The translations under genes and the position numbers were made by a program. The notes under the pieces were generated by a model. It ran no database searches and was not told the origin of the DNA. It saw only the letters and a list, made by a program, of their open reading frames with translations. This document shows, piece by piece, positions 33,134 to 36,848 of a stretch of DNA of 64,000 bases. This DNA is from an uncultured Gemmatimonadales bacterium (GTDB lineage Bacteria > Gemmatimonadota > Gemmatimonadetes > Gemmatimonadales > Gemmatimonadaceae): contig CAWBZV010000003.1 in NCBI GenBank assembly GCA_963793305.1, forward strand, positions 416,001-480,000. Direction: 5' to 3'. The first letter of the stretch is position 1, and each line of letters starts with the position of its first letter.

Positions 33134-35636
33134 GCGAGACGCCACTCATGCAGCAGTATCGGGAGATCAAGGCGCGGCATCAGGACGCGATCCTGTTCTT
33201 TCGCATGGGCGATTTCTTCGAGATGTTCTACGAGGACGCCGAGGTTGGCTCGCGGGTCCTGGGTCTCACGCTGACGGCACGCAACAATGGCGGTGCGGCG
33301 GCGGTCCCTCTGGCCGGCGTCCCCGCCAAGGCGGTCAGCGAGTACGTCAAGCGACTCGTCCGCAAGGGCTTTCGTGTGGCGATCTGCGAGCAGGTCGAAG
33401 ATCCCAAGTACGCGAAGGGTCCTGTTCGGCGCGAGGTCATCGAGACGGTCACGCCCGGCGCCGCGCTCGCCGACGATCTCCTCGACGGGGCTCGCAATAA
33501 TTTTCTCTGCGCGCTGCATGGCACTGGTCTCGCGGCGGTCCGAATGTCTCGACGGGCGAATTCCGTCTCGCCACCGCCCACGTATCCGACGCCGCGGCTC
33601 TCGTCGCTCGCTACGCCCCACGTGAGATCCTGATTGCGCGCGGCGCCACGGTCGGCGTGCCGATCGATGGCGTGCTCGTGACAGAGCGCGAGCCGTGGGA
33701 GTTCGACACGGCGAGTGGCGCCGAAGCGTTAGCCCGGCGTTTTGGCGTTCAGTCGCTCGAGGGATTCGGCGTTCAGTCGTCCGACGCACCTGCCGTAGCG
33801 GCAGCGGGCGCATTGTTGGAGTACCTGCGCGAGCTTCAGCCGGGCGGGCTCCCGCACTTGGCGCGGCCGGTCATCGAACGTCCTGGTGGCTCGGTGCCCC
33901 TCGACGAAATGACGCGCCGGAATCTCGAGCTCGTCGAGTCGTTGCGTGGTGAGGCCGCGGGCACGTTGCTCGACGTCCTCGATCGGACATCGACGCCGAT
34001 GGGCGCGCGGCTTTTGCGCCAGTGGATTCTGGCGCCGCTTTCGGATCGCGTCGCGATCAACGCGCGGCTCGATCGCGTCGAGGCGTTGGCCAACGACTCA
34101 TTGGCCCGTGCGGCGTTGCGTGACGCGCTCGATGGGGTGCGCGACGTCGAGCGCCTCGCCGGCAAGGTCGCCGCTGCCCGGGCGACACCCCGCGAGCTTC
34201 GCTCGCTCGGCGACTCGCTGGCGCGCCTACCCGACGTTAGCGCGGCGGCGGCGCGCGTGGGTCTCGCCGAGCCCTGGGACACGTGCGACGATCTCGCCGC
34301 CGCGATCACTCGAGCGCTCGTCGAGCGGCCGCCGATCGCGATCGGTGATGAGCCGACGATTGAGATCGGTGTCGATGCCGGCGTCGACGAGCTGCGTGTG
34401 CTCCGTGACGGAGGGAAGGACGCGATCGCCGAGATTCAGGCGGCCGAGCGTACGCGGACGGGGATCGCGTCGCTCAAGGTCGGCTACAATCGGGTGTTCG
34501 GATACTTCATCGAGGTGACGAACGCCAACAAGGACGCGGTTCCGGCCGACTATCAGCGTCGCCAGACGCTGACGGGGGCCGAGCGGTATGTGACGCCGGC
34601 GCTCAAGGAGTACGAGGAGCGGGTGCTGACGGCGGCCGAGCGATTGGAGGCGCGCGAGCGGGAGTTATTCGAGGCGTTGCGCTCTGCTACCGGCACTGGG
34701 ATCGCTCGCCTTCAGCTTGTTGCTCGGCGAGTGGCCGAGCTCGACGTTGTGGCGACGTTCGCGGAGGTGGCGGAGCGCGAGCGGTTTGTTCGGCCGGTGG
34801 TGACGGACGACCTCGAGATCGACATCGTCGGCGGCCGGCATCCGGTCGTCGAGCGGATGATGCCGCGCGAGCAGTTCATCCCGAACGATGTTCGGCTCAG
34901 TACGGCCGAGCGGGTGATTATTCTCACGGGGCCGAACATGGCGGGCAAGTCGACGATCCTGCGCCAGGTCGGACTCATCGTATTGTTGGCCCAGGCCGGC
35001 AGCTTCGTACCCGCCGCGCGCGCGACGATCGGCATCGTCGACCGGCTCTTCACGCGCGTCGGCGCGAGCGACAATCTCGTGCGCGGGCAGTCGACGTTTA
35101 TGGTCGAGATGGCGGAGACGAGCGCCATTTTGCACACGGCCACCGCGCGCAGCCTCGTGTTGCTCGACGAGATCGGCCGCGGGACGTTGACGTACGACGG
35201 CGTCTCCATTGCGTGGTCCGTCACCGAGCATCTGCACTCTCGGGTAGGCTGCAAGACTATTTTCGCCACGCACTACCACGAGCTGACGCAACTCGCCGAC
35301 GAGCTCCCGGCTCTCCGCAACTACAACGTGGCCGTCCGCGAAGTCGGCGATCGCATTTTGTTCTTGCACCGGATGCAACCGGGCGGCGCCGATCGCTCCT
35401 ACGGAATCGAAGTCGGCCGCCTCGCCGGCCTCCCGGACGCCGTCATCACTCGCGCTCGCGAAGTGTTGCGGCGCCTCGAAAGCGAACAGCTCGTCGCGTC
35501 ACGCCCTGTCGAGCAGCTCGCACTTTTTGCTCCCGAGCCTCACGCCGCCGTCAAACGCTTAGCAGCGCTCAATCCCGATGATATGACGCCGTTGCAAGCA
35601 CTGACTTTGTTATCTGAGCTCAAAGGGCTCGTTTAA
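33130..35636 (+). CDS. mutS: DNA mismatch repair protein MutS (frameshift ~33540-33600)
   Basis: TPLMQQY, FRMGDFFE, GPNMAGKST, STFMVEM, DEIGRGT, FATHYHEL. Confidence 0.95.
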
Positions 35637-35772
35637 AATCTCACCGCCGAGATTTACTCGCTAGCGCGCAACGCGCGGCGCTTTTTATATTGCCGGTCCG
35701 CTGAACCAGCGTGTGGCCGTTTTCGAATCACCGTGTCGCAGCACCCAGTTGGCACCAAACACGCCGCGTGTG

Positions 35773-35858
35773 GCCCGCGTGGTGGAACTGGTAGACACGG
35801 TCGATTCGCAATCGACTGACCCGCAAGGGTCGTGTGGGTTCAAATCCCGCCGCGGGCA
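35773..35858 (+). tRNA. type II tRNA with Leu-type body and CGC (Ala) anticodon
   Basis: Acceptor GCCCGCG/CGCGGGC with A73; D-arm GTGGAACTGGTAGACAC; anticodon arm GTCGA-TTCGCAA-TCGAC; variable arm GACCC-GCAA-GGGTC; T-arm GTGGG-TTCAAAT-CCCGC; no encoded CCA. Confidence 0.9.
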
Positions 35859-35888
35859 CACGCTGGTTGACACGTACGCTTTTGCACG

Positions 35889-35917
35889 TTGACGGTCGGA
35901 CGCACTATTTCTAGATT
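35889..35917 (+). promoter_or_regulatory. sigma70 promoter for the downstream small RNA
   Basis: TTGACG-17 bp-TAGATT. Confidence 0.7.
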
Positions 35918-35921
35918 TACT

Positions 35922-35997
35922 ACGACCCTTGCGGGCGAAGTGTCCGCCAGTTCCAGACACAGAAGTGACCCCGGGTGATTGCGACACCCGGGGTTTT
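35922..35997 (+). ncRNA. putative anti-tRNA small RNA (three hairpins)
   Basis: Bounded by a promoter and a terminator; three segments complementary to the upstream tRNA. Confidence 0.7.
35969..35997 (+). terminator. intrinsic terminator (possibly bidirectional)
   Basis: CCCCGGGTG-ATTGCGA-CACCCGGGG-TTTT. Confidence 0.8.
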
Positions 35998-36005
35998 CTG
36001 TTGCG

Positions 36006-36710
36006 CTACATGGTCGTCGCCGGCTGATCCGGCATCAGGAATCGAAATTCCTGCCGCACCCACTGCCGCACGAGCCTCCCGCCGAGCTCCGCGGGCACGA
36101 AGCGCATGTGAGGGAGCGCCGAGCGGAGTGATTGCTCGAAGGCCGGGTGCGAGGAGTGGATCACGCGGAGACTGGTGCTGTCCGCGCCGCCCGTCGTGTC
36201 GACGACGAATTCGACGGTCAGCGACCCCTCGATGTGATTCTCCATGAGATACGACGGATACTCCGGCGCCGCACTCGTGGGATCCCGTTGCACCTCGCGG
36301 TCGACCTCGGCGTCGACATAGACCTTGCCACTCGGCAGCGCGTCGATGTCGGGAAGGTCGACCGTAGGCGCCGCGTCGCCCTTGCGCCCAAGGCCGATGC
36401 CTTGGCGGTTGTCGCCGGCGACGTTGAGCCCGGTGCCTTTGGTGGCCTTTGACCGGTCCCCAGACCCATTGGCATTGCTCGGCGCCCATTTGACGCCAGC
36501 GGTATCGAGCGACTTCCCTGTGGGAATCGTCGGAGCCAGATAGGTGACGATGCGCTCCTCGTCACTCTTCTTATCCGCCACTTTCGGCCAATACGCGGCA
36601 CCGGACGCGATGAAAAAGACGACAGCGGAAGCCGCTAATCCCACCGTCACCGACGGTACCGAACACAGACTCGCACTCTGTGGTGCCACGAGGTGGCGCA
36701 GCATACCCAC
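36006..36710 (-). CDS. TonB family energy transducer
   Basis: N-terminal TM; PEYP...IEG...VEFVVDTTG...FVPA. Confidence 0.8.
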   Translation of the reverse strand: MGMLRHLVAPQSASLCSVPSVTVGLAASAVVFFIASGAAYWPKVADKKSDEERIVTYLAPTIPTGKSLDTAGVKWAPSNANGSGDRSKATKGTGLNVAGDNRQGIGLGRKGDAAPTVDLPDIDALPSGKVYVDAEVDREVQRDPTSAAPEYPSYLMENHIEGSLTVEFVVDTTGGADSTSLRVIHSSHPAFEQSLRSALPHMRFVPAELGGRLVRQWVRQEFRFLMPDQPATTM

Positions 36711-36848
36711 ACCCCCACCGGCCTAACAAAATCCCTGGGACTACTATGTGTATTTGCCCGGTCTTACGCTAGTCTCGAACCCGTTCCACGGCCCATGTAG
36801 TCGGGACGACTTGCTCTTAGAAGGGGACGAGTTGCCCTACTACAGTGG

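What the first reader, a model, noticed from the sequence alone, without database searches (positions are those of the whole stretch)
35686..35997. Candidate RNA-only toxin-antitoxin locus: mistranslating tRNA, fold-back leader and dedicated anti-tRNA small RNA
Seen: within ~310 bp there is (i) a possible -10 TATATT at 35686, (ii) a leader complementary to the tRNA and its trailer, (iii) a Leu-bodied tRNA with a CGC anticodon, (iv) a separate TTGACG-17-TAGATT promoter, and (v) a ~75-nt RNA antisense to three tRNA arms that ends in a terminator. Established: hok/sok-type systems combine a self-inhibited, folded-back toxin transcript with a separately promoted antisense RNA acting by loop kissing. 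tRNAs whose identity and anticodon disagree are also known (allo-tRNAs, Streptomyces tRNAProA). Inference: the tRNA would insert Leu at GCG, a very common codon in this window, and is restrained in cis and in trans. It could act in addiction, abortive infection or regulated mistranslation. I do not know of a described system with this architecture.
Basis: partly seen in the sequence, partly recalled or inferred. Interest (0 to 1): 0.93.

Follow-up and report, generated by a model that had tools for sequence, protein, structure and literature searches.

The report
Miscoding tRNA with dedicated antisense RNA
A transfer RNA built like a leucine tRNA but reading an alanine codon lies beside a small RNA gene made to base-pair with it; dozens of soil-bacterial genomes keep this pairing, which suggests a self-restrained mistranslation device not described before.

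Summary
Window 35773-35858 is a class-II tRNA with a leucine-type body (A73, Leu D-arm, no G3:U70) and anticodon CGC (Ala). It is followed by a sigma-70 promoter (35889-35917) and a ~76-nt terminated RNA. That RNA is complementary to three tRNA arms (0 of 1000 shuffles reach the score).

The locus belongs to a family. The genome has three such tRNAs, each with its own antisense RNA, and I found over 60 related loci, the named ones mostly in Gemmatimonadales. Across 56 aligned loci the small RNA's 5' seed pairs with the anticodon loop and the 5' strand of the anticodon stem. 97% of cells are paired, 11 of 13 pairs show compensatory changes, and shuffled and slid controls score far lower. The seed follows the anticodon, which varies (CGC, GGC, AGC, GAC, CAC, GGU). 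The cloverleaf is strictly kept.

Decayed loci lose the tRNA and keep the small RNA, and no intact family tRNA lacked an antisense partner.

Best reading: a Leu-charged tRNA that would misread abundant Ala/Val/Thr codons, neutralised by a co-evolving antisense RNA with toxin-antitoxin-like logic. Expression, charging and toxicity are untested. The fold-back leader has only modest support. My literature searches found no described equivalent.

The parts
35686..35691 (+). Candidate -10 (TATATT) for the leader-tRNA transcript. It has no matching -35 and overlaps the T-run of the mutS terminator.
   Evidence: Sequence. Not called by the promoter scan. A TATAYT is conserved at the same alignment position in the ortholog and in C-type paralogs. 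Inferred, not shown.
35692..35772 (+). Leader. 35704-35715 pairs with A73 plus the trailer (35857-35868). The box at 35730-35737 (the family's GYGTC box) pairs with the D-stem 3' strand and position 26-28 of the tRNA (35794-35801).
   Evidence: 27 of 1000 shuffles reach the score. In the family, box-tRNA pairing is 84.1% paired, covariation 0.212 against 0.147 shuffled. No consensus structure by RNAalifold.
35773..35859 (+). Class-II tRNA with a leucine-type body, A73 at 35858, anticodon CGC at 35807-35809, loop TTCGCAA at 35805-35811, and an acceptor stem without G3:U70.
   Evidence: ARAGORN. Rfam 54.2 bits. Comparison with the genome's own tRNAs. Family cloverleaf 98.2% paired, with compensatory changes in 20 of 24 pairs.
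35860..35888 (+). Trailer. Its first bases pair with the leader. There is no terminator between the tRNA and the next promoter, so read-through into the small RNA is possible.
   Evidence: Read-through is an inference.
35889..35917 (+). Sigma-70-type promoter of the small RNA: -35 TTGACG (35889-35894), 17-nt spacer, -10 TAGATT (35912-35917).
   Evidence: In the family: TTG of the -35 in 56 of 56, 17-nt spacer in 39 of 56, A2 and T6 of the -10 in 54 of 56.
35924..35999 (+). Anti-tRNA small RNA, ~76 nt; the start is inferred as 7 nt after the -10. Antisense patches are 35921-35935 (variable arm), 35946-35955 (D arm) and 35976-35984 (anticodon loop).
   Evidence: 0 of 1000 shuffles reach the score. 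Fold (-34 kcal/mol, z -3.26). Not a known Rfam family.
35967..35999 (+). Intrinsic terminator: 11-bp stem, 7-nt loop ATTGCGA that carries the anti-anticodon, then a T-run. It lies 7 nt from the stop of the convergent TonB_C-like gene and may act in both directions.
   Evidence: Action in both directions is an inference.

Best explanation
The locus is one member of a family of chromosomal all-RNA modules found mainly in Gemmatimonadales.

Part 1 is a genuine, fully foldable class-II tRNA that keeps every leucine-type feature. Its anticodon has been changed to read an abundant non-leucine codon: GCG here, and GCC, GCU, GUC, GUG or ACC in relatives. LeuRS does not read the anticodon (established for bacterial LeuRS; recalled). 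The tRNA is therefore predicted to be leucylated by the genome's single LeuRS and to insert Leu at Ala codons, competing with the two canonical tRNA-Ala(CGC).

Part 2 is a small RNA, separately promoted and terminated, encoded 40-70 nt downstream on the same strand. Its 5' end is a single-stranded seed. The seed would nucleate on the anticodon loop, then invade the 5' strand of the anticodon stem and the 3' strand of the D stem, giving 14-28 bp in all. This would unfold or sequester its own tRNA, or make it a double-strand RNase substrate. In this window's copy the same job is done by three shorter patches, one of them a terminator-loop to anticodon-loop kiss.

Part 3 is a leader that pairs with the trailer and the D-stem region and may hold the precursor.

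The net logic is a potentially harmful decoder kept silent by a dedicated, co-evolving antisense RNA. That is toxin-antitoxin-like, or a switch for conditional mistranslation.

Shown: the anatomy, conservation, covariation and promoter/terminator signals. Inferred: transcription, leucylation, misreading, harm, and the outcome of pairing.
For: Identity of the tRNA:
- Leu-type body, A73, no G3:U70.
- A73 is invariant in 56 of 56, and the cloverleaf is 98.2% paired with compensatory changes in 20 of 24 pairs.
- The genome already has all five Leu isoacceptors and two canonical Ala(CGC), and one LeuRS.
- GCG is the commonest codon, 62.5 per 1000.

The antisense partner:
- Three paralogs in this genome each carry their own antisense. 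Their scores (20, 16, 14.5) are the top three of 62 tRNA calls; all others are 12.5 or less.
- Cognate duplex score averages 17.2 against 9.5 for non-cognate pairs. The upstream control gives 8.7 and the other strand 8.2. The tRNA's own partner is the best for 32 of 41.
- In the 56-locus alignment, tRNA 27-39 against the seed is 97.1% paired and 11 of 13 pairs are compensatory. Over all 18 pairs tested (tRNA 22-39) the covariation score is 0.491, against 0.147 shuffled (0 of 500 reach it) and 0.073 or less when slid.
- G.U pairs outnumber A.C mismatches 30 to 9, as expected for pairing of RNAs read from this strand.
- The seed follows the anticodon: GAC, CAC, AGC, GGC and CGC each have the matching seed. 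In a sample chosen without regard to the small RNA, 29 of 30 tRNAs have a cognate antisense nearby; the exception looks like a pseudogene.
- The promoter is conserved and is placed so that the RNA starts at the seed. A hairpin terminator was found in 48 of 56. The seed is unpaired in 4 of the 5 folds; the fifth stretch began downstream of its seed.

Decay is one-sided: truncated, disrupted or absent tRNAs occur with an intact small RNA (L176, L193, L184, second units in L036 and paralog C), never the reverse.

C33 replaces U33 in 13 of 49 sites (my tally). A review reports that non-U33 curtails decoding in other natural mistranslating tRNAs (PMC11415595, passages seen).
Against: - There is no evidence of expression. 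Metatranscriptome contigs of four runs covered only the neighbouring gene.
- Charging by LeuRS is inferred from identity rules worked out in E. coli (recalled), not in this phylum.
- Members with Val anticodons could also be ValRS substrates, and so harmless.
- C33 in a quarter of the sites could equally mean that decoding is not the selected function.
- The loci are syntenic within the genus and sit among housekeeping genes, not in mobile or defence islands. That fits a regulator as well as a toxin.
- The window copy's loop seed also matches the anticodon loop of one canonical tRNA-Ala(CGC) over 7 nt (sequences), so some cross-talk is possible.
- Most of my family sample came from patterns that fixed the Leu D-arm and part of the anticodon loop. 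Anticodons outside N-R-Y were not surveyed.
Confidence: 0.55

Rival explanations
1. The tRNA is a benign specialised or non-ribosomal tRNA. It could be a Leu donor for a tRNA-dependent transferase, or a tRNA-shaped regulatory RNA. The small RNA merely tunes its level or maturation, and no harm is involved.
For: Chromosomal, syntenic loci sit among housekeeping and signalling genes. C33 in 13 of 49 sites suggests relaxed decoding. Non-translational tRNAs are established in cell-wall and lipid aminoacylation (recalled).
Against: No conserved neighbouring enzyme gene was seen at the three loci of this genome. In the sRNA-blind N-R-Y survey the anticodon loops keep a decoding-type form (Y32, A37) and the anticodons found all read Ala, Val or Thr codons; the pattern itself required Y32, Y33 and A37, so only the spread of anticodons is an observation. 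This window's loop is identical to that of a canonical tRNA-Ala(CGC). The one-sided decay, in which the tRNA is lost and the small RNA kept, is not expected for a harmless tRNA. A dedicated antisense for each paralog is costly for mere tuning.
Confidence: 0.17
2. The roles are reversed. The small RNA is the effector, acting on mRNAs or on canonical tRNA-Ala/Val, and the tRNA-like gene is its sponge or decoy.
For: RNA sponges derived from tRNA transcripts are known (the 3' external spacer of an E. coli tRNA-Leu operon; recalled). The window seed also fits a canonical tRNA-Ala(CGC) loop over 7 nt. Orphan small RNAs exist without a tRNA.
Against: Complementarity runs 14-28 nt into stem sequences unique to the partner tRNA, and it co-varies with them. 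A sponge would not need an intact cloverleaf, an invariant A73 and a Leu-type D loop. The seeds differ between paralogs of one genome, so no common outside target is evident.
Confidence: 0.1
3. The tRNA is harmful without mistranslating. It stays uncharged, enters the A site at very common codons, and triggers RelA and the stringent response, or stalls ribosomes. The small RNA is still the antidote.
For: The anticodons target abundant codons. The antisense architecture and the one-sided decay are the same as for the main reading.
Against: The full LeuRS-type feature set is conserved, including the invariant A73, which argues for charging.
Confidence: 0.08
4. The locus has no function. The downstream complementarity is a decaying inverted partial duplication of a tRNA pseudogene.
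For: The window copy has three short, non-collinear patches that could pass for rearranged debris. Some family loci are clearly decayed.
Against: Compensatory changes occur in 11 of 13 intermolecular pairs and 20 of 24 cloverleaf pairs across 56 loci. G.U pairs are tolerated. The promoter and terminator are conserved. Repeats of 15-20 nt are too short for homogenisation by gene conversion (inference).
Confidence: 0.02

Closest known systems
tRNAProX of Streptomyces/Kitasatospora (tRNAProA, tRNAProN, tRNAProT with ProRSx)
   Same: Natural bacterial tRNAs whose body belongs to one amino acid and whose anticodon belongs to another, including Ala and Thr. Position 33 is unusual and is thought to damp decoding. 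They occur in soil bacteria. (PMC11415595, passages seen; PMC10404621, search listing only.)
   Different: The body here is Leu, not Pro. There is no dedicated second synthetase: one LeuRS in this genome. Position 33 is C, not A. Above all, each tRNA here has a co-evolving antisense RNA, which the passages I read do not report for tRNAProX.
allo-tRNAs (Mukai et al., NAR 2017, PMC5389517)
   Same: Class-II tRNAs with diverse non-cognate anticodons in soil bacteria. They are suggested to be missense suppressors and/or regulatory RNAs and are often found near toxin-antitoxin genes (passages seen).
   Different: allo-tRNAs have 8/4 or 9/3 acceptor/T stems and Ser or Ala identity. These tRNAs have the canonical 7/5 arrangement and Leu features. 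The terms 'antisense' and 'Gemmatimon' do not occur in that paper.
Type I toxin-antitoxin systems such as hok/sok
   Same: An antisense RNA with its own strong promoter is encoded beside its target. Several paralogous, partner-specific copies occur per chromosome. The target transcript folds back on itself. Pairing nucleates on a loop. (Recalled.)
   Different: The target there is an mRNA for a small toxic peptide. Here it is a tRNA, and no coding toxin is involved.
Type VIII toxin-antitoxin pairs (CreT/CreA, SdsR/RyeA)
   Same: Both partners are RNAs. CreT acts on the translation apparatus. (Abstracts in the listing; that CreT sequesters a rare tRNA is recalled.)
   Different: CreA represses creT through a CRISPR effector, not by pairing with the toxin. 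The toxin there is not a tRNA. Toxicity is unproven here.
Sequestration of a tRNA by base pairing (tRNA-LysT/tRNA-ArgU heterodimer, bioRxiv 10.64898/2026.09.02.748885)
   Same: A folded tRNA can be titrated by a complementary RNA, with effects on growth (abstract and passages seen).
   Different: That is a by-product complementarity between two ordinary tRNAs, in the T and acceptor arms. Here a dedicated small RNA gene targets the anticodon and D arms of one special tRNA.
T-box riboswitch
   Same: An RNA that reads a tRNA's anticodon by base pairing.
   Different: There is no Rfam T-box match. No co-oriented gene follows; the next gene is convergent. Pairing extends into the stem, not just the anticodon.

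Membership tests
tRNA (Rfam RF00005) | Cloverleaf scoring above the family's gathering threshold | tested here: met
   54.2 bits against a threshold of 29. ARAGORN call. Family cloverleaf 98.2% paired.
Bacterial tRNA-Leu (substrate of LeuRS) | Discriminator A73 | tested here: met
   A at 35858. Invariant in 56 of 56 aligned loci. That A73 is a LeuRS determinant is recalled.
Bacterial tRNA-Leu (substrate of LeuRS) | Class-II body with a Leu-type D arm and loop (A14, A15, G18G19 placement, U48) | tested here: met
   The D-arm region is 15-19 of 20 identical to the five canonical tRNA-Leu of the genome, against 4-9 for Ser, Tyr, Sec and Ala. These positions are invariant or nearly so.
Bacterial tRNA-Leu (substrate of LeuRS) | Leucine anticodon (NAG or NAA) | tested here: not met
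   The anticodon is CGC. It is not a LeuRS determinant (recalled), so this bears on decoding, not on charging.
Bacterial tRNA-Leu (substrate of LeuRS) | Actual leucylation | not testable with these tools
   Needs an aminoacylation assay or charged-tRNA sequencing.
tRNA-Ala (substrate of AlaRS) | G3:U70 wobble pair | tested here: not met
   Pair 3:70 is C:G in the window. In the family it is G:U in 1 of 56. The genome's two canonical Ala(CGC) do have G3:U70.
allo-tRNA | 8/4 or 9/3 acceptor/T-stem arrangement | tested here: not met
   7-bp acceptor and 5-bp T stem, both co-varying.
tRNAProX / ProRSx system | Pro-type body and a dedicated second synthetase | tested here: not met
   Leu-type body. 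Only one match above the leuS cut-off in the genome, which is 92% complete. No synthetase gene beside the three loci.
Type I toxin-antitoxin | Antisense RNA with its own promoter, encoded beside its target and specific for it | tested here: met
Type I toxin-antitoxin | The target is an mRNA encoding a small toxic protein | tested here: not met
   The target is the tRNA itself. No conserved ORF was looked for beyond the ORF list.
Type VIII (RNA toxin, RNA antitoxin) | The RNA is toxic on its own and is neutralised by the partner RNA | not testable with these tools
   Only indirect: one-sided decay of loci, and no intact tRNA without a partner.
T-box riboswitch | T-box fold upstream of a co-oriented regulated gene | tested here: not met
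   No Rfam match even at E up to 1. The downstream gene is on the other strand.

The most novel reading that the evidence does not exclude
These modules are a new class of all-RNA toxin-antitoxin or abortive-infection system. The toxin is a stable, leucine-charged tRNA that misreads the cell's commonest Ala, Val or Thr codons. The antitoxin is a short-lived antisense RNA that starts on the anticodon loop and unzips the tRNA. When transcription of the locus stops, through loss, phage take-over or stress, the small RNA decays first and proteome-wide Leu misincorporation arrests the cell.
Probability: 0.33. Interest if true: 0.95.

Novelty: new variant of a known kind. Interest (0 to 1): 0.88.

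Why it matters
Dual-identity tRNAs are known, and so are antisense-controlled toxic RNAs. My searches found no report of a tRNA with its own co-evolving antisense RNA gene.

If the reading holds, three things follow:
- Cells can carry genetically encoded mistranslation as a loaded device and control it purely by RNA pairing.
- It adds a Leu-bodied family to the short list of natural miscoding tRNAs. That family spans at least seven anticodons and about 7% of the sampled genomes of one order.
- It offers a compact, programmable tRNA/anti-tRNA pair for synthetic biology.

It also warns annotators. These genes are called tRNA-Ala, tRNA-Val or tRNA-Thr by anticodon, although they are almost certainly not.

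Tried and rejected
- RNA evidence. The run search and the laying of four metatranscriptome runs put contigs only on 35252-35297 and on the TonB_C-like gene region from 36005 onward, with nothing on 35686-35999. Such libraries and contigs seldom hold small RNAs, so this says nothing either way.
- RNAalifold on leader plus tRNA plus trailer (54 loci) returned only the cloverleaf.
- Leader-trailer pairing did not separate cognate from non-cognate pairs: 7.7 against 7.2. In one clade both sides are conserved. Within the genus the helix changes sequence between paralogs.
- Ranking the genome's tRNAs by global identity to the window tRNA was uninformative: Met, Arg and Leu all came near 0.70. I used the D-arm comparison instead.
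- A 12-mer scan of the genome for further antisense copies gave only chance-level scatter.
- The first genome-wide pattern was too loose. Two of the five matches in this genome were chance hits in coding sequence.
- The viral-contig scan gave 2 hits, a tRNA fragment without an acceptor stem and an unrelated AT-rich phage tRNA. Neither is a family member.
- Rfam at a permissive threshold found no other family.
- Earlier findings of this scan gave nothing.
- I could not define the promoter of the tRNA transcript outside the genus. The conserved upstream block is not a sigma-70 consensus.
Full report
**What is in the window**

Between the 3' end of mutS (33657-35636, +; MutS domains II-V) and a convergent TonB_C-like gene (36006-36710, -) lies a ~310-bp non-coding stretch. 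It holds, in order:
- a TATATT at 35686-35691;
- an ~80-nt leader;
- a tRNA at 35773-35858/9;
- a 30-nt trailer;
- the only sigma-70-like promoter of the region, TTGACG-17-TAGATT at 35889-35917;
- a ~76-nt RNA ending in an 11-bp hairpin and T-run at 35967-35999.

**The tRNA**

ARAGORN names it Ala because the anticodon is CGC, but the body is that of a leucine tRNA.
- It has a long variable arm.
- Its D-arm region is 15-19 of 20 identical to the genome's five canonical tRNA-Leu. The figures are 6-9 for Ser, 4 for Tyr, 9 for Sec and 9 for the canonical Ala(CGC).
- Its discriminator is A, and pair 3:70 is C:G rather than the G:U that AlaRS needs.

The genome already has a full Leu set (GAG, TAG, CAG, TAA, CAA) and two ordinary tRNA-Ala(CGC) with G3:U70. 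So this is an extra gene, not a reassignment. Only one leuS-class gene scores above the family cut-off. GCG is the most used codon in 512 long ORFs: 62.5 per 1000, and 51% of Ala codons. That LeuRS ignores the anticodon and relies on A73 and D-loop/tertiary features is recalled from E. coli work, not tested here.

**Complementarity in the window**

The downstream RNA is antisense to three arms:
- the variable arm, 15 nt;
- the D arm, 10 nt;
- the anticodon loop, 9 nt, sitting in the 7-nt terminator loop.

The summed score is 32.5 against 20.6 +/- 2.0 in 1000 dinucleotide shuffles, and none reaches it. The leader has a perfect 12-bp match to A73 plus the trailer and an 8-bp match to the D-stem/26-28 region; 27 of 1000 shuffles reach its score. 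In the minimum-energy fold of the precursor these leader pairings replace the D stem and anticodon stem of the cloverleaf and enclose the acceptor end; the variable and T arms remain.

**It is a family**

The genome holds three such tRNAs: C3:451773 (this one), C3:636248 and C3:709201. They are 79-84% alike, and each has a leader, a trailer, a promoter and a terminated small RNA. In the other two, the first 15-20 nt of the small RNA are a perfect complement of that paralog's own anticodon loop and 5' stem strand. Among all 62 ARAGORN calls of the genome these three have the three highest downstream antisense scores (20, 16, 14.5). The rest score 12.5 or less, with a median of 8.5.

I collected relatives with DNA patterns.
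- Among 60 relatives, 3 of the 5 other genomes of the genus matched, and 0 of 55 genomes from other genera. Two of the five matches in G000 itself were chance hits in coding sequence.
Eight of those 12 are labelled Gemmatimonad-, and one each Planctomycetales, Chloroflexi, Paracoccaceae and Gammaproteobacteria.
- A specific scan of metagenome contigs gave 45 loci.

Together these gave 51 distinct tRNA-plus-flank combinations. Of these, 43 have a gap-free antisense run scoring 14 or more within about 40-110 nt downstream. Five more score 10-12.5, and two of those that I read through (L109, L176) continue past a single mismatch. The three non-Gemmatimonad outliers (L043, L093, L104) have no clear partner.

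**Covariation**

In a swap test on 41 unique loci the cognate score averages 17.2.
- Non-cognate pairs average 9.5 (95th percentile 13.0).
- The upstream flank gives 8.7.
- The opposite strand gives 8.2.
- The tRNA's own flank is the best partner for 32 of 41.

I then aligned 56 loci from tRNA start to seed. From the 64 combinations in hand I left out 8:
- the window's locus and its G001 ortholog, because their antisense is arranged differently;
- the three outliers;
- two exact duplicates;
- one with too short a flank.

For 18 intermolecular pairs (tRNA 22-39 by running count), 91.7% of cells form standard pairs. The covariation score is 0.491 against 0.147 in shuffles (0 of 500 reach it) and 0.043-0.073 when the partner is slid by 1-3 columns. 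For the 13 pairs covering the anticodon loop and 5' stem strand, 97.1% are paired and 11 of 13 pairs show changes on both sides. G.U pairs outnumber A.C mismatches 30 to 9. That fits selection on RNAs read from this strand rather than DNA-level homogenisation.

On the same alignment the cloverleaf is 98.2% paired with compensatory changes in 20 of 24 pairs. A73 is invariant, and 3:70 is G:U in 1 of 56. The tRNA is therefore under selection as a tRNA, and the same stem strand co-varies with two partners.

**The small RNA gene**

- The -35 TTG is present in 56 of 56 (TTGACT in 28).
- The spacer is 17 nt in 39, 18 in 12 and 16 in 5.
- The -10 has A2 and T6 in 54 of 56.
- The -10 ends 7-11 nt before the seed, so transcription should start at or just before it.
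- A strict hairpin-plus-T scan finds a terminator in 48 of 56. The other 8 have visibly imperfect GC hairpins.
- Five stretches were folded. In four the seed is unpaired ahead of a strong terminator hairpin, and the clade-2 RNAs add a small hairpin; the fifth stretch began downstream of its seed.

The typical RNA is thus about 55-75 nt. The window's copy is the odd one. Its 5' end targets the variable arm, and the anti-anticodon has moved into the terminator loop. Its ortholog in G001 has a 28-nt antisense plus a second, tandem small RNA against the D arm.

**The leader**

Conserved blocks exist. One of them, the GYGTC box, pairs with the D-stem 3' strand and positions 26-28 of the tRNA. It is 84.1% paired, with a covariation score of 0.212 against 0.147 shuffled (0 of 500 reach it) and 0.041-0.149 when slid. 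That support is modest and is strongest within the genus. RNAalifold finds no consensus leader structure. Leader-trailer pairing does not separate cognate from non-cognate pairs overall. I therefore treat the fold-back leader as plausible but not established.

**The anticodon is not fixed**

My first patterns required CGC, so I searched again in two ways.

The first was a pattern on the small-RNA module alone. It matched 12 of 401 genomes of the order, against control hits in 2 genomes. It led to the same Leu-bodied tRNAs with CGC, GGC, GGU and GAC anticodons, and the seeds matched each.

The second was a pattern on the Leu D-arm with a relaxed loop (anticodon N-R-Y), blind to the small RNA. 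It matched 29 of 401 genomes at 49 sites, with 0 control hits. By my own tally of the printed matches the anticodons are CGC 24, CAC 9, GAC 5, GGC 5, AGC 3, GGU 2 and UGC 1, and position 33 is C rather than U in 13 of 49.

The loci returned held 31 distinct tRNAs:
- 1 had too short a flank to judge;
- 27 of the remaining 30 have a downstream antisense that includes the loop and follows the anticodon;
- 2 are tandem units with the small-RNA module 208 nt upstream instead;
- 1 has none. It carries a UGC anticodon and a shortened variable arm, and is probably a pseudogene.

Anticodons outside N-R-Y were not surveyed.

**One-sided decay**

Several loci keep the small RNA while the tRNA is damaged or gone:
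- the 3' half of the tRNA is deleted (L176);
- a ~70-nt insertion sits in the T loop (L193);
- an orphan module has no tRNA (L184);
- a second small RNA follows a remnant of a tRNA 3' end (L036);
- a second small RNA with a diverged seed follows paralog C in this genome.

I saw no intact family tRNA without a partner among the Gemmatimonad-type loci. This asymmetry is what one expects if the tRNA is harmful when unopposed. The numbers are small.

**Context and range**

The three loci of this genome lie among housekeeping and signalling genes (mutS; Ser/Thr kinases; a PP2C phosphatase). No mobile-element, defence or synthetase genes are adjacent. Positions are shared between species of the genus. 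In a sample of 401 genomes across the phylum the exact CGC pattern occurs in 4. Viral contigs gave no family member. The distribution is patchy: it was found in 7% of the sampled genomes of the order and was not found in most genera searched.

**How it most likely works**

Shown:
- a selected, foldable Leu-type tRNA with a non-Leu anticodon;
- a conserved promoter and terminator bracketing a short RNA;
- strong partner-specific covariation between that RNA and the anticodon/D region.

Inferred:
- the tRNA is leucylated and misreads Ala (or Val, Thr) codons;
- the small RNA nucleates on the pre-stacked anticodon loop, invades the stem and the D stem, and so inactivates or marks the tRNA;
- the leader delays folding;
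- because no terminator lies between the tRNA and the small RNA, the antidote is also co-transcribed.

Whether the purpose is addiction, defence or conditional mistranslation cannot be told from sequence. The rivals are a benign special tRNA, reversed sponge logic, an uncharged stringent-response trigger, and debris; they are weighed in their own section.

**Literature**

Searches for leucine/alanine-codon mistranslating tRNAs, Gemmatimonadetes tRNA antisense, allo-tRNA, small RNAs complementary to the anticodon, anti-tRNA, tRNAProA and type VIII systems found nothing with this architecture. I read passages of three papers:
- PMC5389517;
- PMC11415595;
- the preprint 10.64898/2026.09.02.748885.

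For all other papers I saw only listings or the start of the abstract. Subscription journals are mostly outside this library, so a prior description cannot be excluded.

**Limits**

There are no expression data for the locus. Identity rules are borrowed from E. coli. The family sample was drawn with patterns. Kin are not independent, although the slid-partner controls keep relatedness. G000 is 92% complete with 5% contamination.

Noticed in passing
G000:C3:709201-709287 (-) and flank (locus L008); locus L036: A second, tandem small-RNA unit with its own promoter and terminator follows the first. It keeps complementarity to the tRNA stem but not to the anticodon loop. In L036 it is preceded by a remnant of a tRNA 3' end, so it is the orphan of a lost unit.
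   Followed up: partly
L176 (G136:C82), L193 (G050:C164), L184 (G240:C24): These are decayed units. In L176 the tRNA 3' half is deleted. In L193 a ~70-nt insertion sits in the T loop. L184 is a small-RNA module with no tRNA. In each case the small RNA gene looks intact.
   Followed up: partly
L171 (metagenome contig), L183/L203 (G113:C7), L220 (G442:C89): Tandem arrays occur: three units in L171 and two units with different anticodons (CGC and GAC) in G113. In G442 the order is reversed, with the small-RNA module 208 nt upstream of its tRNA.
   Followed up: partly
Family-wide (one search list): C replaces the near-universal U at position 33 in 13 of 49 sites, and the small RNA carries the matching G. 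This may damp decoding, as reported for A33/G33 in other natural miscoding tRNAs.
   Followed up: partly
A2 alignment columns ~107-168; window ~35640-35691: A conserved block lies 60-100 nt upstream of the leader box (TGC-GTT..A.CGGTTAC or AACGATGAC types). It is not a sigma-70 consensus outside the genus. It could be an unusual promoter or a regulator site for the tRNA transcript.
   Followed up: no
L093 (Paracoccaceae MAG), L104 (Gammaproteobacteria MAG), L043 (Chloroflexi MAG): Leu-like class-II tRNAs with anticodon CGC also occur outside the phylum, without a clear antisense partner. L043 has a 12-nt complement to the D and anticodon stem only. Their context was not examined.
   Followed up: no
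L117 (Planctomycetales-labelled MAG contig): This is a complete unit with a 17-nt seed and an extra 9-nt anti-D-arm stretch, in a contig binned to another phylum. It reflects either horizontal transfer or mis-binning.
   Followed up: no
window 36006-36710 (-): This TonB_C-like gene is what the soil and peat metatranscriptome contigs of four runs covered (36005-36800), with many third-position differences. Related organisms carrying this gene are present in those RNA libraries.
   Followed up: no
G000 contigs C3:412684, C3:616291, C5:831649, C12:141242, C12:205543, C14:171327: ARAGORN reports six odd, long 'tRNAs' (79-100 nt) with poor cloverleaf features. They look like false positives in GC-rich sequence rather than further unusual tRNAs.
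   Followed up: no
L201 (IMG/VR contig): A viral contig carries a fragment of a Leu-type tRNA(CGC), from the D arm to the T arm, without an acceptor stem. It may be an integration-site remnant.
   Followed up: no
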